Below are positions 58,432 through 63,944 of a DNA stretch of 64,000 nucleotides, piece by piece (position 1 is the first letter of the stretch; every line of letters begins with the position of its first letter). The position numbers and the translations under genes were made by a program. The DNA is taken from NCBI GenBank assembly GCA_902518985.1, contig CABYIF010000001.1, positions 8,814 through 72,813 of the forward strand, in the 5' to 3' direction. The notes below the pieces were generated by a model. The model was not told the origin of the DNA and did no database searches. It worked only from the letters and a program-made list of their open reading frames with translations. This stretch comes from an uncultured Alphaproteobacteria bacterium (GTDB taxonomy: Bacteria; Pseudomonadota; Alphaproteobacteria; HIMB59; GCA-002718135).

Positions 58432-58506
58432 GCGGGCGTAGCTCAGGGGTAGAGCGCAACCTTGCCAAGGTTGAAGTCGAGGGTTCGAATCCCTTCGCCC
58501 GCTCCA
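58432..58506 (+). tRNA. tRNA-Gly (anticodon GCC), CCA encoded
   Basis: Manual cloverleaf. Acceptor GCGGGCG/CGCCCGC, D-arm GCTC-AGGGGTA-GAGC, anticodon arm CAACC-TTGCCAA-GGTTG, variable AAGTC, T-arm GAGGG-TTCGAAT-CCCTT, then discriminator T and CCA. Confidence 0.93.
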
Positions 58507-58611
58507 AAAACATTGTAATCACTTAATTTTCTGAAAAACCCCCTCAATGCACCTCAATGTACTTTTTTGCTTTTGTAACAGTCAATACATTGAGTATTTA
58601 ATCTTAATATT

Positions 58612-59589
58612 TTAATTAAATATTCTAGTTTCAAAAATTTTTTTAATGATACTTTCTAAAACATTAACCACAACAGTATTGCCAAATTGTTTGTATGAAA
58701 CAGAATCTTTTTGATGTAATTTAAAATTTTCAGGAAAACCAAAAAGTCTTGCACATTCTCGAGGAGCAAGTTTTCTTATTTTATTGTTAATTTGGTATAA
58801 ACCTGTTTTTGCACCTACTCCACCACCATAAGCAGTTAATGCGATTGCATGTCCAAATTGACTATAAATCCTTTCACCTTGCCCACCCTTATTTACTATA
58901 CCAACTCTAAAACTTTTCTGAGGATAACTATTAAACATATCTTTAATTGGTTTTGTTTTAGTTAAAACAATATCATCTCTTTTGATTACATACTTTTTAG
59001 TCTCTTTATCTGGTAAAATTATATCTTTTATTACTGATTCTTTATTGTTTGAATTATCAAAAGAAAAATTTTTGATTTTCAAATTTTTTCTAAATGAAAC
59101 TAAATAAATTCTTTCTCTTTTTTGTGGCACGCCATAACTAGATGCATTTATTACTTTATAAAATGTATTATACCCAATTTCATCTAATGTACTTAATACA
59201 GTAGATAGAGTTTTACCATTATCATGTTCTTTAAAATTCTTAACGTTTTCTAAAAGTAAAACTTTAGGTTTATGATATTTGGCAATTCTGGCAATATCAA
59301 AAAAAAGCGTACCTCTCGTATCTTTAAAACCTAATCTTTTTCCAGATATACTAAATGCTTGACATGGAAAACCTGCACATAAGATCTGATGACTTGGTAT
59401 ATCTTTTTCATGAATTTTAGTAATATCTCCTGAGGGTTTGATTTTAAAATTATCGAAGTATACATCTTGACAATTCTTGTCCCATTCAGATGCAAATACA
59501 CATTTAGTACCAAACTTTTTAAGAGCAATATGAAAACCACCTATACCGCAAAATAAATCTATATAATCAATTTTTCTCTTAGGGTTCAC
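58612..59589 (-). CDS. DNA (cytosine-5) methyltransferase, M.HhaI-like (predicted GCGC specificity)
   Basis: 325 aa with a GTG start. m5C motifs are I DLFCGIGGF, IV GFPCQAFS, VI ENVKNF, VIII QKRERIY, IX RECARLFGFP and X GNTVVVNV. The variable region GIVNKGGQGERIYSQFGHAIALTAYGGG is nearly colinear with my recollection of the M.HhaI target-recognition domain (GIVGKGGQGERIYSTRGIAITLSAYGGG). Confidence 0.92.
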   Translation of the reverse strand: MNPKRKIDYIDLFCGIGGFHIALKKFGTKCVFASEWDKNCQDVYFDNFKIKPSGDITKIHEKDIPSHQILCAGFPCQAFSISGKRLGFKDTRGTLFFDIARIAKYHKPKVLLLENVKNFKEHDNGKTLSTVLSTLDEIGYNTFYKVINASSYGVPQKRERIYLVSFRKNLKIKNFSFDNSNNKESVIKDIILPDKETKKYVIKRDDIVLTKTKPIKDMFNSYPQKSFRVGIVNKGGQGERIYSQFGHAIALTAYGGGVGAKTGLYQINNKIRKLAPRECARLFGFPENFKLHQKDSVSYKQFGNTVVVNVLESIIKKIFETRIFN

Positions 59590-60401
59590 TTTATCATTTC
59601 TAAATATAGTTTATTATCTTCATCATATTTTTCGGAGTCTAACTGTATAGTAAATATCACTGTAGGACTGTTTGTATTACTTTTTTTCTTAATATAATAT
59701 GAATTACTTTCCCCAATTCGTGACAAAAATAACCTTATATCCTGAAATTTAATCTCATTAACACTTCTTATCTGGGTATCGGTCTTTAATGTAATCTTAA
59801 TTCCTTTTTCATCATTACTAAATTCTGCATCTATGTATTTTGTTTTTAAAAAATCAATTATCTCACCTTTATTTTTCTTTGGTAAATAACTAGTGCCACT
59901 TCTTTTTTTTCTGTAGAGACCTTCAACTTTAAAGTTTCTTTTAAAATTTTGTCTATGTATTAAGAAGAAATTATTTTCATTTTTAGACGTTATAATAAAT
60001 TCTATATTTTTTTCTTGGAAATAATTATCAATACATTCATATATTAAATCAATTTCACAATCTAATTTTATACCACTTTGATTTGGGTTTTTGTAGTATT
60101 CATATCTGCCTTTCATATGTTCAAGGATTTTACTTGTTTTAAATACTGCTGACTTTTTTAAATCTCCAAGTTTATAACTTTTATTTTTTTTATCTATCAG
60201 AACAACAAACTGTGATATCTGTGATTTTCTTTCTTTAATTTCTATATTAAATATATTTTTATTTTTTTTAAAAATCTTAATGTCAACTTCATTTGAGTCT
60301 GACCCACCAACCCCACTGGAGGGTCCAACAATATTTACCATTCCTTTGGAAATATCACTTAGAAAAGATTCTGCATATTTCTCAGTTATTTTCCAATTCA
60401 T
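59586..60401 (-). CDS. type II restriction endonuclease candidate (PD-(D/E)xK-like), partner of the M.HhaI-like methylase
   Basis: 271 aa. Its stop overlaps the methylase GTG start (GTGA). Candidate catalytic motif VD-X13-EIK (SNEVDIKIFKKNKNIFNIEIKERK). Size is close to that of R.HhaI-type enzymes. Confidence 0.6.
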   Translation of the reverse strand: MNWKITEKYAESFLSDISKGMVNIVGPSSGVGGSDSNEVDIKIFKKNKNIFNIEIKERKSQISQFVVLIDKKNKSYKLGDLKKSAVFKTSKILEHMKGRYEYYKNPNQSGIKLDCEIDLIYECIDNYFQEKNIEFIITSKNENNFFLIHRQNFKRNFKVEGLYRKKRSGTSYLPKKNKGEIIDFLKTKYIDAEFSNDEKGIKITLKTDTQIRSVNEIKFQDIRLFLSRIGESNSYYIKKKSNTNSPTVIFTIQLDSEKYDEDNKLYLEMIK

Positions 60402-60544
60402 AAACTGAGTTTAGCAAATTATTCTGCATCAACCAACTTTCTTACAGTTAGTTTTTAAAAAAAGTTAAGAATATACAATGCACCTTCAATGCACTTTTTG
60501 AGAAAAGCATTATATACTCTAGATAATTAAAAGTGAGTGAAGTA

Positions 60545-60570
60545 TTCGAATCCCTTCGCCCGCTCCAAAA
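60545..60570 (+). repeat. att-like direct repeat 2: exact 26-nt copy of tRNA-Gly 3' end (T-loop to CCA plus AAA)
   Basis: ttcgaatcccttcgcccgctccaaaa is identical to 58484-58509. The upstream tgaagt (60538-60543) may be residual similarity to the variable-loop region, with a short deletion. Confidence 0.9.
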
Positions 60571-60666
60571 TTCTAGATACATTAGTTTTAATCAGCTTTA
60601 TATCGGCACTTATATAATTAAATTCTTGATGAATTAAAAAAATTAATAGAGTTTAAAGATATTATT

Positions 60667-61428
60667 ATGAAATTTATCTTTACTTTACTCTTCTTAGTTT
60701 TTTGTTCTTTCACAAACTCCTATGCTAAACCACCTTACGATGGAACTATTTGGTACTTTCCAGATATAATTAATTCTAATGACCCAACAACATTTAAGGA
60801 GTTAATTTATATTGGTAAAGATTATCGCGAAATGTTTGATCGAAGAAAAGGTGGCAGATGGTTAAATAAAGAAGCATTTTTATTTAATGCAGTATACGAG
60901 GAAAGAACAATTGAAATACAAGTAAATCCTGAATTTAAAAATGTTGATAATGCACTTAAGGAAGCGTTTTACTATTCTGAAGTGATTGGAAGATTGCCAA
61001 ATTTCTTACTAACTAATGTAAAAACTGTCTGGATCCATAAAGGAAAAAAAAACTATGGTGGCGGTAATGAAAATTTATTGATTCATACTGGTAGAAGTAA
61101 GGAATATATTTCTAAAGGTATCCTAGAAGAAGTTTTTATCCATGAAGCAGGCCATACCTCTTTAGATTGGGATTTCGGAGGATTACTAAGTAAAACACTA
61201 TGGCAAAAAGCAAAAAGAAAAGACAAAGAACATATTTCTGATTATGCCAAAAAATTTCCTCGTAGAGAAGATGTGGCTGAGAGTATTTTGACATGGATAG
61301 CTGTGCGTTATCGTTCAGACAGAATATCAGAAGAAAATAATGAAATAGTTCTAAATACAATACCTAATCGCTTGAAGTTCTTTGATGAACAAAATTTTGA
61401 TATGTACCCTTTAGTTCCTCGAGAGTAG
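60667..61428 (+). CDS. secreted HExxH zinc-metallopeptidase-like protein (family unknown)
   Basis: 253 aa with signal peptide MKFIFTLLFLVFCSFTNSYA. Contains an HEAGH motif (VFIHEAGHTSL) with downstream acidic residues (REDVAES). It is the only gene in cassette B. Confidence 0.5.
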   Translation: MKFIFTLLFLVFCSFTNSYAKPPYDGTIWYFPDIINSNDPTTFKELIYIGKDYREMFDRRKGGRWLNKEAFLFNAVYEERTIEIQVNPEFKNVDNALKEAFYYSEVIGRLPNFLLTNVKTVWIHKGKKNYGGGNENLLIHTGRSKEYISKGILEEVFIHEAGHTSLDWDFGGLLSKTLWQKAKRKDKEHISDYAKKFPRREDVAESILTWIAVRYRSDRISEENNEIVLNTIPNRLKFFDEQNFDMYPLVPRE

Positions 61429-61551
61429 TATAGGGTTTTTTTACTTTTCATTGGCACTGTATCGGCACTTCAGATAAAATTATAAAATTGATGGAATAAA
61501 ATGTTTTAGATTACTAAGGATTGTGGTGATCAAGTTCATACCCAGCAACAC

Positions 61552-61598
61552 TGCCAAGGTTGAAGTCGAGGGTTCGAATCCCTTCGCCCACTTCAACA
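61552..61598 (+). repeat. att-like direct repeat 3: 38-nt exact copy of tRNA-Gly from anticodon loop to acceptor stem, then 6/9 matches
   Basis: tgccaaggttgaagtcgagggttcgaatcccttcgccc (61552-61589) is identical to 58463-58500. The tail acttcaaca aligns with gctccaaaa. Confidence 0.9.
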
Positions 61599-61683
61599 AG
61601 GCTTTATAATTATATTTAAATAAATTTATAAAAACGTTATGTATTATAATTAATCATTTTATGTTAAGTTAATTATAAAAAAA

Positions 61684-62265
61684 ATGATCATCTTTAATCC
61701 ATTAAAAGAAATAATTATATGGTTTGAGTATATTATCAATTTTTTACCAGGAAAAATTGGTAAACTTATTAGAATCTTTTGGTTTTCAATAAGAACAAGA
61801 AAAATTTTTGGAGTTAGTGTTGATACAGGCTGCAGATTTATTATGTTAAGCAACATAGAATTTGGAAAAGGAGTGGGCATATCAAGAAACTGTAGTTTTT
61901 TAGCAGATGGAGGAAAAATAATTATTGGAGATAAAACAGCTTTTAACGAAAATTGTCATATTAATGCTTCAAATGGTGGAACAATTAAAATTGGAAAGAA
62001 ATGCCCAATTGGTCCAAATGTAGTAATGAGAACTTCTAATCATAATTTTAATAACAAAAATATATATATTCAAGATCAAGGTCATACATCTGGGAATATT
62101 ACTATTGAAGATAACTGCTGGATAGCTGCCAATGTTACAATACTTAATAATGTTAAAATAGGTAAGGGAAGTGTTATTGGTGCTGGAGCAGTAGTAACAA
62201 ACAATATTCCTGAAAATAGTATTGCTGTGGGGATCCCAGCAAAAGCAATAAAAAAGATACCATAG
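61684..62265 (+). CDS. left-handed beta-helix (hexapeptide-repeat) O-acetyltransferase, WbbJ/WcaF-like
   Basis: 193 aa. Hexapeptide repeats (IGDKTAFNENCHINASNGGTIKIGKKCPIGPNV...IEDNCWIAANVTILNNVKIGKGSVIGAGAVV) and C-terminal VGIPAK. Confidence 0.8.
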   Translation: MIIFNPLKEIIIWFEYIINFLPGKIGKLIRIFWFSIRTRKIFGVSVDTGCRFIMLSNIEFGKGVGISRNCSFLADGGKIIIGDKTAFNENCHINASNGGTIKIGKKCPIGPNVVMRTSNHNFNNKNIYIQDQGHTSGNITIEDNCWIAANVTILNNVKIGKGSVIGAGAVVTNNIPENSIAVGIPAKAIKKIP

Positions 62266-62435
62266 AAATGTACCCTTAATCTAATAACAACTAATTCTAA
62301 AATTCTAAACAAATTAGAAAAATTCTACAGCCCCAAATTTACATTTATAATTAAAATTAAATGTTATTAAGTAAGCAATATTTAAATATTCTTAATTAGT
62401 ATTGCAAATTTATTAATAAACCATAAAATAAAATC

Positions 62436-62528
62436 ATGAAGAATATTTTACTTTATATTTTGGTTTTACTTACACCTCTTTTTTTAACAAGTTGTAATTT
62501 AGGTGCTGCTTGGAATGTTGGCTGGTAA
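62436..62528 (+). CDS. candidate 30-aa mini-lipoprotein (not in the ORF track)
   Basis: Own translation: MKNILLYILVLLTPLFLTSCNLGAAWNVGW*. It has a signal peptide and lipobox L-T-S-C. The predicted mature lipopeptide is 11 aa and Trp-rich. Confidence 0.35.
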   Translation: MKNILLYILVLLTPLFLTSCNLGAAWNVGW

Positions 62529-62566: not shown

Positions 62567-63337
62567 ATGAAAGAGCTGCCAATTGCTATATATACAGATC
62601 ACTCAATAAGTAAAACACTGTGCTATAGTTTTGCTTTAGGCTCAAAATCACTGATGTGTCATGTAAATAATTTTAAAGAATATAATAAAACTATTATTAC
62701 TTACGGGGTGTTAAGAGGGACCGGCGAATTGCTAAAAAAAGTAAATAAATACTATTATATTGATCATGGATATTTTAATCAATCTAAACGAGTTTTTGAA
62801 AATAAAAAGACAAATGTTATCGATTTAGATGGCTATTTTAGAATTGTATTCAATAATTTAATTTTTAATAATAAAGGCAAACATTCTTCTGATAGATTAA
62901 ATAAACTTAATTTAAAATTTAAGAATAAAAAAAAATCAGGGCAATATATTATCTTATCTGAACCATCTGATGCTATGAAAAAATTTTATAATGTTAAAAA
63001 TTGGACAGAGGAAACAATAAAATTAATTAAAAATTTTTCAGATCGCAAAATTATTATTCATAATAAATTTTCTAAAGTATCATTAAATGATTTACTTTTA
63101 GATGCTTGGGCTTTTGTCAGTCTTCAATCAACAGCTGGTTTTAAGGCGATGATTTATGGAGTGCCTGCATATTTTACTGATAAGACATTAAGAGCTATAA
63201 GTAAAATTGAAGAAATAGAAAAACATGAAATTAATTATGAAATATTTAATAGCCTTGCATATTCACAATGGACTATAAATGAAATAAAAAGTGGAGAAGC
63301 TTGGGAATTTATATCAAAACAACAAAATACTAATTGA
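62567..63337 (+). CDS. hypothetical protein, possibly GT-B-like glycosyltransferase half
   Basis: 256-aa ORF. The C-terminal segment VSLQSTAGFKAMIYGVPAYF resembles the nucleotide-sugar-binding S..G.E....G.P pattern of GT-B enzymes. No firm family recognised. Confidence 0.3.
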   Translation: MKELPIAIYTDHSISKTLCYSFALGSKSLMCHVNNFKEYNKTIITYGVLRGTGELLKKVNKYYYIDHGYFNQSKRVFENKKTNVIDLDGYFRIVFNNLIFNNKGKHSSDRLNKLNLKFKNKKKSGQYIILSEPSDAMKKFYNVKNWTEETIKLIKNFSDRKIIIHNKFSKVSLNDLLLDAWAFVSLQSTAGFKAMIYGVPAYFTDKTLRAISKIEEIEKHEINYEIFNSLAYSQWTINEIKSGEAWEFISKQQNTN

Positions 63338-63347
63338 TCTAAAGATT

Positions 63348-63944
63348 TTACTTAACGTAAAAACTTATATTAAAGCTTATTACTATTCTTTCTTCTTTTG
63401 ATAAATTTGGATTAACGGAATGATCTAAATAACTTGGAAAAAGTATTAATCCTCCTTCTACTGGACTTATAGAATTAACCATTGCGTTAAGAGCATTTGG
63501 AGTTTTTGCCAATGGATGCGAGTACACTGGAGCTGGCCTTGGATCATAAAAAACAATATCTCCTGAGTTTATTGGAGCTCTAACATAGTAAGCCCCACTA
63601 ATAGAGCTATTTCCATGATGATGTCTTGAGTTTTCAGCACCACCTTTATTAACAATAGCCCACATTTCGGTAATTTTGATACTTTGTTTATTATTGTCCC
63701 AATTCATGTCATTAATGACTTTTTCAATATTTGGTAATATTAACTTAATAAAATTTTGTGGCTCAGCCGTTTTTAAGTCAAATTCTTTTGAATGCCATCC
63801 TCTGACATTACTCCTAGTTAAGCCATCACTATCTTCATTTTGAAGTTTTTTTATATAATTGAATATCTGCTCATTGGTTTCTTTATAATTTTCTATTTTT
63901 GAAACCCACACAGGAGTTGAGAAAAAGAGCGTTGGATTTGACAT
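63348..63944 (-). CDS. TIGR02466-like putative 2OG-Fe(II) oxygenase
   Basis: 198 aa. Motifs TPVW, GWHS, NSRHHHGNSSISGAYYV, FYDPRP and LILFPSYLDHSVNPN...RIVISFN match my recollection of this family, which is common in marine bacteria and cyanophages. Confidence 0.65.
   Translation of the reverse strand: MSNPTLFFSTPVWVSKIENYKETNEQIFNYIKKLQNEDSDGLTRSNVRGWHSKEFDLKTAEPQNFIKLILPNIEKVINDMNWDNNKQSIKITEMWAIVNKGGAENSRHHHGNSSISGAYYVRAPINSGDIVFYDPRPAPVYSHPLAKTPNALNAMVNSISPVEGGLILFPSYLDHSVNPNLSKEERIVISFNISFYVK

What the first reader, a model, noticed from the sequence alone, without database searches (positions are those of the whole stretch)
58432..61598. Two integrase-less cargo cassettes stacked at tRNA-Gly(GCC), delimited by three copies of the tRNA 3' half
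Seen directly:
- An intact tRNA-Gly(GCC) lies at 58432-58506.
- Its last 26 nt, counting the encoded CCA and three following A (58484-58509), recur exactly at 60545-60570.
- A longer 38-nt piece, from anticodon loop to acceptor stem (58463-58500), recurs exactly at 61552-61589. It continues with 6/9 matches to 61598.
- All three copies have the same orientation.

This is the classic footprint of successive site-specific integrations into the 3' half of a tRNA gene, with older insertions pushed distally. The distal copy has the degenerate tail, which fits that order.

The segments are unusually small and minimal. Cassette A is about 2.0 kb and holds only an R-M pair. Cassette B is about 1.0 kb and holds one secreted HExxH protein. 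No tyrosine or serine recombinase, excisionase, replication or phage gene appears in them or anywhere else in the 64 kb.

SAR11-type genomes are generally described as nearly free of mobile DNA. A modular array of single-function cassettes, apparently mobilised in trans, is therefore noteworthy. It recalls the tRNA-anchored cargo arrays linked to tycheposon-type elements in marine picocyanobacteria. That is an analogy only.
Basis: partly seen in the sequence, partly recalled or inferred. Interest (0 to 1): 0.78.

Follow-up and report, generated by a model that had tools for sequence, protein, structure and literature searches.

The report
Integrase-less gene cassettes at SAR11 tRNA-Gly
Two small gene cassettes without a recombinase sit in a row behind a tRNA-Gly gene of a SAR11 marine bacterium; each still carries complete integration-site arms like those of phage satellites that target the same tRNA, and one cassette is precisely missing from near-identical wild strains.

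Summary
An intact tRNA-Gly(GCC) lies at 58432-58506, with two same-strand partial copies at 60545-60570 (26 nt exact) and 61545-61599 (55 nt, 91%; 38 nt exact).

- In 67 SAR11 single-cell genomes the same tRNA is followed by 0 to 6 such copies. Between them lie 88 segments whose order varies.
- Near-identical metagenome contigs lack cassette A exactly at the repeat.
- A genome whose flanks are only 77% identical carries cassette A at 97% identity, in second position.

Each cassette carries its own 7-10-nt motif as a tandem pair, 11 nt apart, near both ends. The free (unintegrated) forms of two satellite-like elements show the same layout around a tRNA-Gly copy: motif pair, tRNA copy, motif pair, then a lambda-type tyrosine integrase gene. 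One of them shares its motif with a family of integrase-less cassettes.

The cassettes are therefore best read as non-autonomous integrative elements, probably moved by integrases supplied in trans. No integrase matching the window's own two motifs was found.

The kind is known: additive tRNA islands, and partial-tRNA cassettes noted in SAR11 in 2025. I found no description of the arm architecture or the satellite link in the papers I could search.

The parts
58432..58506 (+). Intact tRNA-Gly(GCC). It serves as the attachment site (attB/attL). It lies directly downstream of the retinal operon crtI-crtB-crtY-blh.
   Evidence: ARAGORN; Rfam 70.9 bits; blh is PF15461. The same arrangement occurs in 67 of 69 related loci.
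58507..60544 (.). Cassette A, 2038 bp, T-loop class. A non-autonomous integrative cassette carrying a restriction-modification pair.
   Evidence: Precisely absent in L215, L216, L218 and L219. Present at 96-97% identity in two other array contexts, L145 and L220.
58543..58562 (+). Cassette A left (P') arm motif pair: CTCAATGCAC CTCAATGTAC.
   Evidence: The same left arm precedes at least 8 other cargos in metagenome contigs.
58612..59589 (-). C5 cytosine DNA methyltransferase, 325 aa.
   Evidence: PF00145, E 7e-95; TIGR00675.
59586..60401 (-). 271-aa ORF, probably the restriction endonuclease partner.
   Evidence: Only 18 homologue clusters in 5.8 billion proteins. In every context read, at 93%, 56% and 43% identity, an overlapping C5 methylase gene follows it. 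No domain match.
60476..60494 (+). Cassette A right (P) arm motif pair: CAATGCAC ctt CAATGCAC. It starts 69 nt before copy 2.
   Evidence: The same arm at the same 69-nt distance occurs in 10 SAR11-like metagenome contigs and in L049.
60545..60570 (+). Partial tRNA copy 2, the attR of cassette A. It repeats tRNA positions 53-75 plus AAA, exactly.
60571..61544 (.). Cassette B, about 0.97 kb, anticodon-stem class. An older non-autonomous cassette with one secreted HExxH protein.
   Evidence: Also present in L006, L058, L035, L061, L178 and L220 at 80-89% identity, in different array positions.
60591..60609 (+). Cassette B left arm motif pair: ATCAGC tttat ATCGGCAC. Spacing 11 nt; one copy is degraded.
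   Evidence: L023_c1 and L178 carry ATCGGCA pairs at the same place.
60667..61428 (+). 253-aa protein with a signal peptide and an IHEAGH motif; function unknown.
   Evidence: no family match and no solved relative.
61450..61468 (+). Cassette B right arm motif pair: ATTGGCAC tgt ATCGGCAC. Spacing 11 nt; it starts 95 nt before copy 3.
61545..61599 (+). Partial tRNA copy 3, the degraded attR of cassette B. It copies tRNA positions 25-75 and 4 following bases at 91% identity; 38 nt are exact.
61600..62415 (.). Probable older third insertion carrying a hexapeptide-repeat transferase (61684-62265). No recognisable distal repeat or arms.
   Evidence: The gene is absent from all 67 related single-cell-genome loci but present in the near-identical contigs L215-L217. 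The conserved flank resumes at about 62415.
62567..63944 (.). Conserved right flank of the island: a 256-aa ORF (+) and a 2OG-Fe(II) oxygenase (-).
   Evidence: tblastn hits in most related loci, at variable distance from the tRNA. In L010 the ORF starts 264 nt after the tRNA, the fully empty site.

Best explanation
Window 58432-61599 is the tRNA-proximal end of an additive genomic island. The island sits at the tRNA-Gly(GCC) gene downstream of the retinal operon in a SAR11 (Pelagibacteraceae) genome.

Two small circular DNA molecules integrated here one after the other by site-specific recombination with the 3' part of the tRNA gene. Cassette B came first. It crossed over at the anticodon stem-loop and left a copy of about 51 nt. 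Cassette A came later. It crossed over at the T-loop and left a copy of 23-26 nt.

Neither cassette encodes a recombinase, yet each still has a full lambda-type attachment site split between its two ends. Its own 8-nt motif appears as a tandem pair, 10-11 nt apart. One pair lies 20-40 nt inside the left end. The other lies 50-95 nt before the right-hand tRNA copy. I read these pairs as arm-type binding sites for the N-terminal domain of a cognate tyrosine integrase.

Integrases of that type are encoded by 5-7-kb satellite-like elements that use the same tRNA. The cassettes would therefore be integrated and excised by an integrase supplied in trans. Alternatively they ride along when a neighbouring autonomous element excises using a distal repeat.

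Shown: the repeats, the arms, the precise presence/absence polymorphism, the transfer between divergent genomes, and the free attachment sites of the satellites.

Inferred: that the motif pairs bind integrase; that the window's cassettes can still move; and which integrase moves them.
For: 1. Hotspot. In 67 related loci, tRNA-Gly is followed by 0-6 same-strand partial copies. These bound 88 segments (window included) of 0.5-7.6 kb.

2. Discrete units. The same cassettes recur at different array positions and in both relative orders. Fam1 is found at positions 1-5. Fam1-Fam2 occurs in L004 and L026; Fam2-Fam1 occurs in L039 and L050.

3. Recent transfer. Cassette pairs are 96-99.9% identical where the 3-kb flanks are 79-93% identical. 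Cassette A is 97.2% identical in L220, whose flank is 76.6% identical, and it sits second in that array. It is also found in a third context, L145.

4. Precise empty allele for cassette A, in contigs 99.8-100% identical to the window.

5. Arm sites. A left tandem motif recurs near the right end of the same cassette in 54 of 62 cases, and twice in 43 of 62. Mismatched pairings give means of 17.6 and 5.5. At least 15 motif families exist.

6. Repeat length follows the cassette on its left. CAATRCAC and GCAATATAG arms go with 23 nt. GGGACAC, GTAGCC and similar arms go with 51 nt.

7. Free attachment sites. Element P0039 sits on head-to-tail concatemer contigs with a 7339-nt period. It reads GTGTCGAC x2, about 85 nt, a 72-nt tRNA-Gly copy, about 50 nt, GTCGAC x2, then the integrase gene. 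Element P0085 sits on circularly permuted 6.7-kb contigs. It reads GCGGGACA x2, about 85 nt, a 51-nt tRNA-Gly copy, about 30 nt, GCGGGACA x2, then the integrase gene. That motif is the one found in the integrase-less cassettes L015_c1, L018_c1, L041_c1, L054_c1 and L063_c2. In the same way, the GTGTGACA arms are shared by the integrase-bearing L030_c1 and L061_c1 and by the integrase-less alternative-oxidase cassette.

8. The integrase is PF00589. Its AlphaFold model (pLDDT 89.9) has an extra N-terminal three-stranded sheet plus helix. The model aligns over its whole length with full-length lambda Int.

9. Same arms, different cargo. The CAATRCAC arms flank at least 8 unrelated cargos. None of them includes an integrase.

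10. Decay. Repeats degrade with rank from the tRNA: 0.24 to 2.67 mismatches.
Against: - No integrase-bearing element with the window's own motifs (CAATGCAC, ATCGGCAC) was found. It was absent from 69 genome loci, about 50 metagenome loci and two scans of viral contigs.
- No integrase was seen in any cassette of the T-loop class.
- No free circular or concatemeric form of any integrase-less cassette was seen.
- Cassette B has one degraded motif copy and a degraded distal repeat. It always lies distally, at 80-89% identity, so it may be fixed and no longer mobile.
- The allele without cassette A cannot by itself tell excision from RecA-mediated deletion, or from a strain that was never invaded.
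- Protein binding to the motif pairs is untested. They could be sites for another protein.
- L049_c1 and L060_c1 carry different motifs at their two ends, so the rule that left equals right is not absolute.
Confidence: 0.62

Rival explanations
1. Fossils. The cassettes are decayed, now immobile remnants of once autonomous satellite- or tycheposon-like elements that lost their integrase and replication genes. Present-day polymorphism would come from RecA recombination between the direct repeats (deletion) and from homologous exchange of array segments between cells.
For: About 8 segments hold truncated integrase N-termini. Repeats decay distally. Cassette B looks old and partly degraded. SAR11 is known for high homologous recombination (my own knowledge). 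The 51-75-nt repeats are long enough for RecA.
Against: The arms are intact and matched at both ends of tiny single-gene cassettes that show no integrase remnant. Both relative orders of the same two cassettes exist. Cassette A lies at position 1, at position 2 and at position 2 or later in three genomes. The same arms flank at least 8 cargos. The 23-nt repeats are marginal substrates for RecA.
Confidence: 0.28
2. Remnants of tandem duplication of the tRNA-Gly gene. The partial copies would be decayed paralogues and the intervening genes ordinary chromosomal DNA.
For: All copies are on the same strand. Copy 3 reaches back to tRNA position 25.
Against: No 5' half: 15 of 52 positions upstream of copy 2 match, which is the chance level. 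Across 67 genomes the copy boundaries fall sharply at position 25 or 53. The content between copies differs between genomes and is precisely absent in near-identical strains. Free elements carry the same partial copies.
Confidence: 0.01
3. An integron-like array, with cassettes captured by an IntI-type integrase through folded attC sites.
For: Single-gene, recombinase-less cassettes in a row with a proximal-newest gradient.
Against: There is no intI next to the array. The recombination sites are tRNA copies with direct-repeat arms, not imperfect inverted repeats. The motif matches within a cassette, not across a junction. The related integrases are lambda-type with an arm-binding-like domain.
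Confidence: 0.01

Closest known systems
Additive flexible genomic islands at tRNA genes (Rodriguez-Valera and co-workers). Example: the tRNA-Lys island of 'Ca. [quoted passage not shown] Also the partial-tRNA repeats noted in four SAR11 islands (PMC11796062).
   Same: A tRNA anchor, cassettes separated by direct repeats of the tRNA 3' end, strain-to-strain variation by gain and loss of cassettes, and few or no recombinase genes in the island.
   Different: Those reports give the repeats only. Here each cassette is shown to carry a complete split attachment site with its own phased motif pairs. Two attachment-site classes coexist at one tRNA. Autonomous partners with the same architecture are identified.
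VEIMEs, virion-encapsidated integrative mobile elements: marine phage satellites of Pelagibacter and others (Eppley et al. 2022, bioRxiv 10.1101/2022.07.26.501625).
   Same: The integrase family found at this tRNA sits on 6.7-7.3-kb elements assembled as head-to-tail concatemers or circular permutations. These carry a DUF5906 primase/helicase-like gene, which is the published signature. They use the same tRNA-Gly.
   Different: The window's cassettes have no integrase, replication or packaging gene and are 1-2 kb. At most they are non-autonomous relatives or hitch-hikers of such satellites. Whether P0039 and P0085 belong to the published VEIME set was not checked.
Tycheposons of Prochlorococcus (Hackl et al., bioRxiv 10.1101/2020.12.28.424599). 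Tycheposon-like elements are also reported in Pelagibacter (PMC11876622).
   Same: tRNA-anchored islands in a streamlined ocean bacterium, stacked elements separated by partial tRNAs with newer ones proximal, defence and nutrient cargo, and many degraded remnants.
   Different: Tycheposons are defined by their own recombinase and hallmark genes. None is present here. The single-gene cassettes with intact arms are not part of that description.
CIMEs, cis-mobilisable elements, and accretion arrays of integrative conjugative elements in Streptococcus thermophilus (Pavlovic, Bellanger, Guedon and co-workers; my own knowledge, not read here).
   Same: Elements flanked by functional attL/attR but lacking recombination and transfer genes. 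They lie in tandem with autonomous relatives at one site and are mobilisable by the partner's integrase.
   Different: There the partner is conjugative. Here the candidate partners are phage-satellite-like. The cassettes are far smaller and far more diverse, with many arm specificities at one tRNA.
Lambda-type attP: a core site flanked by arm-type sites that bind the Int N-terminal domain.
   Same: Total size of about 200-240 bp. Tandem direct repeats at helical phase on both arms. An integrase with an extra N-terminal sheet-plus-helix domain.
   Different: Only two copies per arm and the same orientation on both arms. Binding has not been shown.

Membership tests
Additive flexible genomic island at a tRNA | The island directly adjoins a tRNA gene. 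| tested here: met
   tRNA-Gly at 58432-58506, followed at once by variable DNA.
Additive flexible genomic island at a tRNA | Cassettes are delimited by direct repeats of the tRNA 3' end. | tested here: met
   Copies at 60545-60570 and 61545-61599. The same holds in 47 of 67 related loci.
Additive flexible genomic island at a tRNA | Content differs between strains by addition or loss of cassettes, between conserved flanks. | tested here: met
   56 cassette families among 88 segments. Conserved flanks are blh on one side and the 256-aa ORF plus 2OG oxygenase on the other. A precise allele lacking cassette A exists.
Non-autonomous (cis- or trans-mobilisable) integrative element, CIME-like | Flanked by attL and attR derived from a complete attP. 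| tested here: met
   tRNA copy plus matched motif pairs at both ends of A and of B. The layout equals the free attP of P0039 and P0085.
Non-autonomous (cis- or trans-mobilisable) integrative element, CIME-like | No recombinase, replication or transfer genes of its own. | tested here: met
   A holds only the methylase and the 271-aa ORF; B holds one ORF. No integrase-HMM hit in the window.
Non-autonomous (cis- or trans-mobilisable) integrative element, CIME-like | An autonomous partner exists whose integrase recognises the same attachment site and arms. | tested here: inconclusive
   Found for the GCGGGACA arms (P0085) and the GTGTGACA arms (L030, L061). Not found for the window's CAATGCAC and ATCGGCAC arms.
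Non-autonomous (cis- or trans-mobilisable) integrative element, CIME-like | Demonstrated excision or integration when the partner is present. | not testable with these tools
   Needs an experiment or read-level data.
Tycheposon | Encodes a tycheposon-clade tyrosine recombinase or a large serine recombinase. | tested here: not met
   No recombinase in the cassettes or in the window. The clade of the related integrases was not determined.
Tycheposon | Hallmark replication or packaging genes (primase/helicase, excisionase, and so on). | tested here: not met
   None in A or B. DUF5906 occurs only in related autonomous elements.
VEIME phage satellite | A 5-7-kb element with an integrase, found as a concatemer in virions. 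| tested here: not met
   The window's cassettes are 1-2 kb without an integrase. Arm patterns gave no SAR11 hit in viral contigs. The partner elements P0039 and P0085 do show concatemer or permuted assemblies.
Integron gene cassette | An IntI integrase with attI next to the array, and attC inverted-repeat sites. | tested here: not met
   No integrase next to the array. The junctions are tRNA copies with direct-repeat arms.
Type II restriction-modification pair (cargo of A) | A methyltransferase with an adjacent, co-inherited endonuclease gene. | tested here: inconclusive
   The methylase is certain. The 271-aa partner is always paired with it across 43-93% identity. No nuclease fold or motif was shown.

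The most novel reading that the evidence does not exclude
SAR11 populations maintain an integron-like gene-cassette economy at tRNA-Gly(GCC), and probably at other tRNAs. Hundreds of single-gene cassettes each consist of cargo plus a roughly 200-bp attachment site with a private 'arm code'. They have no recombinase of their own. Integrases of phage satellites insert, excise and reshuffle them in trans, and they spread between divergent lineages together with those satellites. The many arm specificities would then form a matching system between cassette families and integrase families.
Probability: 0.35. Interest if true: 0.82.

Novelty: new variant of a known kind. Interest (0 to 1): 0.6.

Why it matters
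SAR11 is the most abundant bacterial group in the ocean. Its gene-content variation is large, and how that variation arises is debated. Recent work states that its islands hold no canonical mobile elements.

The data here show a concrete, testable mechanism at one hotspot.
- Single-gene cassettes carry defence, surface-modification and secreted proteins, with intact integration sites but no recombinase.
- Their site architecture is identical to that of satellite-like elements that target the same tRNA.
- One cassette shows precise gain or loss among near-identical wild strains.
- The same cassette was transferred between lineages whose flanks are only 77% identical.

If the cassettes are mobilised in trans, phage satellites would be the engine of a much larger pool of non-autonomous cargo. 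The short motif pairs would also give a simple sequence handle for finding such cassettes and pairing them with integrases in metagenomes.

Tried and rejected
- Viral contigs (IMG/VR), tRNA copies. The 51-nt copy gave one hit, a high-GC full tRNA. The 23-mer gave 75 hits; the low-GC ones I read were phage-borne or other tRNA-Gly genes, and none was an attP of SAR11 type.
- Viral contigs, arm patterns. CAATRCACCTTCAATRCAC gave 0 hits. GGCACTRTATCGGCAC gave 17 hits, none low-GC.
- Known pelagiphages. They integrate at tRNA-Cys, tRNA-Leu and tRNA-Arg, not tRNA-Gly (bioRxiv 10.1101/410191). The closest phage integrases are only 32-36% identical and come from Ralstonia and Burkholderia podophages.
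- L049_c1 as an integrase-bearing partner for cassette A's arms. Its right end has the arm, but its left end carries a different motif and no internal left arm was found. It is probably a fusion.
- Tandem tRNA duplication and integron readings were rejected (see rival explanations).
- Function of the HExxH protein and of the 271-aa ORF. Pfam, NCBIfam and PDB sequence searches gave nothing usable.
- The Cell version of the tycheposon paper is not held, so what it says about SAR11 could not be read.
- The tRNA-Ser(UGA) copies inside many right arms were followed only as far as mapping their extents. They remain unexplained.

Full report
**1. The observation**

ARAGORN finds a single tRNA in the 64-kb window, tRNA-Gly(GCC) at 58432-58506. 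Rfam agrees at 70.9 bits and calls no other tRNA nearby.

The last 23 nt of the gene plus AAA recur exactly at 60545-60570. A longer piece recurs at 61545-61599. All copies are on the + strand. Chance expectation for such repeats is about 1e-12 or less.

Upstream lies the retinal operon crtI-crtB-crtY-blh. Between the copies lie two segments.
- Cassette A: a C5 DNA methylase plus an overlapping 271-aa ORF.
- Cassette B: one 253-aa protein with a signal peptide and an HExxH motif.

**2. The site is a hotspot across SAR11**

Using the Blh protein I fetched 69 loci from species-representative genomes. All are marine single-cell genomes labelled uncultured Alphaproteobacteria or Pelagibacteraceae. 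In 67 of them tRNA-Gly follows blh.

Twenty have no further copy of the 3' 23-mer. The other 47 have one to six copies, always on the same strand, 0.5-7.6 kb apart. L010 shows the fully empty site: the conserved downstream 256-aa ORF starts 264 nt after the tRNA.

With the window included, these copies bound 88 inter-repeat segments. They fall into 56 sequence families. Recurrent families sit at different array positions and in both relative orders. The sulfotransferase cassette precedes the 86-aa cassette in L004 and L026, and follows it in L039 and L050.

Cassette pairs are 96-99.9% identical between genomes whose 3-kb upstream flanks are only 79-93% identical. Mismatches in the repeat rise with rank from the tRNA, from 0.24 to 2.67. 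This fits newest-proximal stacking.

**3. Two attachment-site classes**

The copies come in two sharp lengths. One is about 51 nt (tRNA 25-75, from the anticodon stem onwards). The other is about 23 nt (from the first base of the T-loop). A third type of 72-73 nt accompanies one element family.

The length goes with the cassette to the left of the copy, wherever that cassette sits in an array. That is what integration predicts, because attR inherits the identity block of the incoming attP. In the window, cassette A belongs to the T-loop class and cassette B to the anticodon-stem class. The two lengths therefore reflect class, not only decay.

**4. Every cassette carries matched arm motifs**

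Nearly every cassette has a tandem pair of a 7-10-nt motif, spaced 11 nt start to start, 25-70 nt after its left tRNA copy. The same motif pair lies near its right end. It sits about 55 nt before the 23-mer in the T-loop class and about 75-95 nt before the 51-mer in the other class.

The motif differs between cassette families. Examples are GGGGACA, GTAGCC, GTGTGACA, GTCCCAC, CGCAGTAGT, TCCGACA, GCAATATAGTT and at least eight more.

A left motif is found again in the last 170 nt of its own cassette in 54 of 62 cases, and twice in 43 of 62. With right ends of cassettes that bear other motifs, the means are 17.6 and 5.5.

The window obeys the rule.
- Cassette A: CTCAATGCAC/CTCAATGTAC at 58543-58562 and CAATGCAC-ctt-CAATGCAC at 60476-60494.
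- Cassette B: ATCAGC-tttat-ATCGGCAC at 60591-60609 and ATTGGCAC-tgt-ATCGGCAC at 61450-61468.

**5. Who has the integrase**

Only 5 of the 88 segments encode an intact tyrosine integrase (PF00589). In L049, L060 and L067 the gene lies next to the tRNA. In L030 and L061 it lies at the far end. About eight more segments hold truncated N-termini.

A Pfam scan of 67 representative cassette proteins of at least 140 aa matched 39 families. The 25 that were listed contain no recombinase or transposase. Cargo is mostly of three kinds.
- Defence: restriction-modification systems, an McrB-like protein, an HNH nuclease, a helicase.
- Envelope modification: methyl-, sulfo-, carbamoyl- and pyruvyl-transferases.
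- Small secreted proteins.

An alternative-oxidase module also occurs.

The integrase family is abundant in marine metagenomes, with 284 clusters at E <= 1e-20.

P0039 lies on contigs that are head-to-tail concatemers with a 7339-nt period. The repeat unit holds a DUF5906 primase/helicase-like gene, small ORFs and the integrase. This is the published signature of VEIME phage satellites (bioRxiv 10.1101/2022.07.26.501625).

Its unintegrated attachment site reads: GTGTCGAC-cgag-TGTCGAC, about 85 nt, a 72-nt exact copy of tRNA-Gly(GCC) positions 4-75, about 50 nt, GAGTCGAC-tctg-TGTCGAC, then the integrase start codon. L045_c1, L059_c1 and L048_c2 look like integrated, decayed copies of this element.

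P0085 lies on circularly permuted 6.7-kb contigs. It shows the same layout around the 51-nt copy, with GCGGGACA pairs on both arms. That motif and core are those of the integrase-less cassettes L015_c1, L018_c1, L041_c1, L054_c1 and L063_c2, which carry four different cargos. Likewise, the GTGTGACA arms of the integrase-bearing L030_c1 and L061_c1 are shared by the integrase-less alternative-oxidase cassette and by L008_c1.

An AlphaFold model of P0039 (pLDDT 89.9) has an N-terminal three-stranded sheet plus helix ahead of the core-binding and catalytic domains. The model aligns over its full length with full-length lambda integrase and with Tn1549 Int. This fits an arm-binding domain. Binding itself is inferred, not shown.

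**6. The window's own cassettes move as units**

The 271-aa ORF of cassette A has only 18 homologue clusters among 5.8 billion proteins. In every context read, an overlapping C5 methylase gene follows it. This supports a restriction-modification pair.

Cassette A occurs in three array contexts.
- Window: first after the tRNA and followed by cassette B.
- L145 (96.4% identity): preceded by the right arm of another T-loop-class cassette and followed by a different one.
- L220, assembly GCA_028408895.1 (97.2% identity): the crt-blh flank is only 76.6% identical. Cassette A is second in a run of at least four matched-arm cassettes.

Four metagenome contigs (L215, L216, L218, L219) encode the window's exact HExxH protein. 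They join blh-tRNA-Gly (100% identity in three of the four; 91% over L219's 138 nt) directly to 60545 onwards (99.6-99.8% identity). The overlap is exactly the 26-nt repeat.

A metagenome scan with the right-arm pattern of cassette A returned 10 clear SAR11-like contigs and one degenerate one. In the clear ones the arm lies 69 nt before the 23-mer. The cassettes carry the same left arm and at least eight unrelated cargos. None has an integrase.

Cassette B is also present in L006, L058, L035, L061, L178 and L220, directly after the tRNA or after other elements. Identity is 80-89%, against 72-77% for the flanks. It is older and probably long resident. One arm copy and its distal repeat are degraded.

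Beyond copy 3, the hexapeptide-transferase gene (61684-62265) is absent from all 67 single-cell-genome loci. It has no recognisable boundary, so it is probably a still older insertion.

**7. Mechanism**

The best reading is stepwise site-specific integration of small circles. Each circle carries a lambda-type attP: arm pair, tRNA-derived core, arm pair.

The cassettes are non-autonomous. They could be moved by integrases encoded elsewhere, on satellite-like elements or possibly on phages. They could also be co-excised with a neighbouring autonomous element.

The main rival is that they are immobile fossils reshuffled by homologous recombination. Four observations weaken it: intact matched arms on tiny cassettes, both cassette orders, position changes, and one arm set around many cargos. 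It is not excluded, least of all for cassette B.

What is missing: an integrase with the window's motifs, any integrase for the T-loop class, and any free form of an integrase-less cassette.

**8. What is known**

tRNA-anchored additive islands with repeats of the tRNA 3' end are an established category (for example PMC10872708). [quoted passage not shown] It also states that no canonical mobile elements were found.

Tyrosine-recombinase elements, tycheposon-like elements and VEIME satellites near tRNAs in Pelagibacter are reported in PMC11876622. Stacked elements separated by partial tRNAs are described for Prochlorococcus tycheposons.

The following did not appear in the papers I could search:
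- the split, complete attachment site on each integrase-less cassette;
- the family-specific phased motif pairs;
- two site classes coexisting at one tRNA;
- the match to the free attachment sites of satellite-like elements.

I therefore file this as a new variant of a known kind.

Noticed in passing
L025 14374-14463, L039 12614-12703, L041 14899-14988, L050 12595-12684, L059 14078-14167, L007 13878-13967 (all minus strand). Shorter pieces in L009, L015, L018, L031, L041_c1, L048, L054, L063.: Many right arms of the 51-nt class contain a reverse-strand copy of tRNA-Ser(UGA), just left of the motif pair. It spans nt 4-90 in six loci and is cut back to nt 36-64 in others. The first 3 nt of the 'full' copy do not pair with the acceptor 3' strand, so it looks like an attachment-site copy rather than a working gene. 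This may be a second or ancestral target of these elements. None occurs in the window.
   Followed up: partly
window 61684-62265: A hexapeptide-repeat transferase gene lies between copy 3 and the conserved flank. It is absent from all 67 related single-cell-genome loci but present in near-identical metagenome contigs. No repeat or arm marks its far end.
   Followed up: partly
L207-L210 (P0133); L208 1399-4657: One identical 336-aa integrase sits next to tRNA-Arg(ACG), with GTCAC-tcgtgc-GTCAC arms, and is followed by entirely different cargo on four contigs. One of these cargos is a sugar ABC transporter/ROK/glycosidase block. In L208 this tRNA-Arg island faces a tRNA-Gly array on the opposite strand.
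   Followed up: partly
L203 8825-16257: In a SAR11 single-cell genome, a 7-kb element with an integrase and a DUF5906 gene is integrated at the 5' half of tRNA-Ser(GCT). A 42-nt 5' copy marks the far end and the intact tRNA lies at the near end. The same integrase family therefore also uses 5'-half sites.
   Followed up: partly
L025_c3, L039_c2, L041_c4, L050_c2, L059_c2 versus L004_c1, L012_c1, L026_c1: The same sulfotransferase cargo occurs with two different arm sets. The GTCCCAC-armed version keeps a remnant of the GGGGACA left arm just inside its own left arm. This suggests that one cassette was nested in, or captured by, another chassis.
   Followed up: no
L023 15541-17117; L049 18524-20061: The 86-aa cassette and the sulfotransferase cassette are fused into one segment with no tRNA copy between them. 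This is loss of an internal attachment site.
   Followed up: no
window 59586-60401: The 271-aa partner of the methylase belongs to a very rare family: 18 clusters among 5.8 billion proteins, with no domain match. Some homologues sit in phage- or plasmid-like contexts with a resolvase and a large helicase-nuclease (L147).
   Followed up: partly
window 62436-62528: A 30-aa ORF with a lipoprotein-type signal (LTSC) lies just upstream of the conserved 256-aa ORF. The DNA here is conserved in L026, L050 and L056.
   Followed up: no
L153-L156, L160 (high-GC viral contigs): Runs of four or five GGCAC-containing repeats at about 11-nt spacing occur in unrelated high-GC phage contigs. They were picked up by the arm pattern of cassette B. 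They resemble arm-site arrays and are unrelated to SAR11.
   Followed up: no
L049 10946-18500; L060 10944-15899: Two integrase-bearing segments carry different motifs at their left and right ends. They are probably fusions of two elements. L060's integrase differs from the truncated L013-type integrase mainly in its first 30 or so residues, while its left-arm motif also differs.
   Followed up: partly
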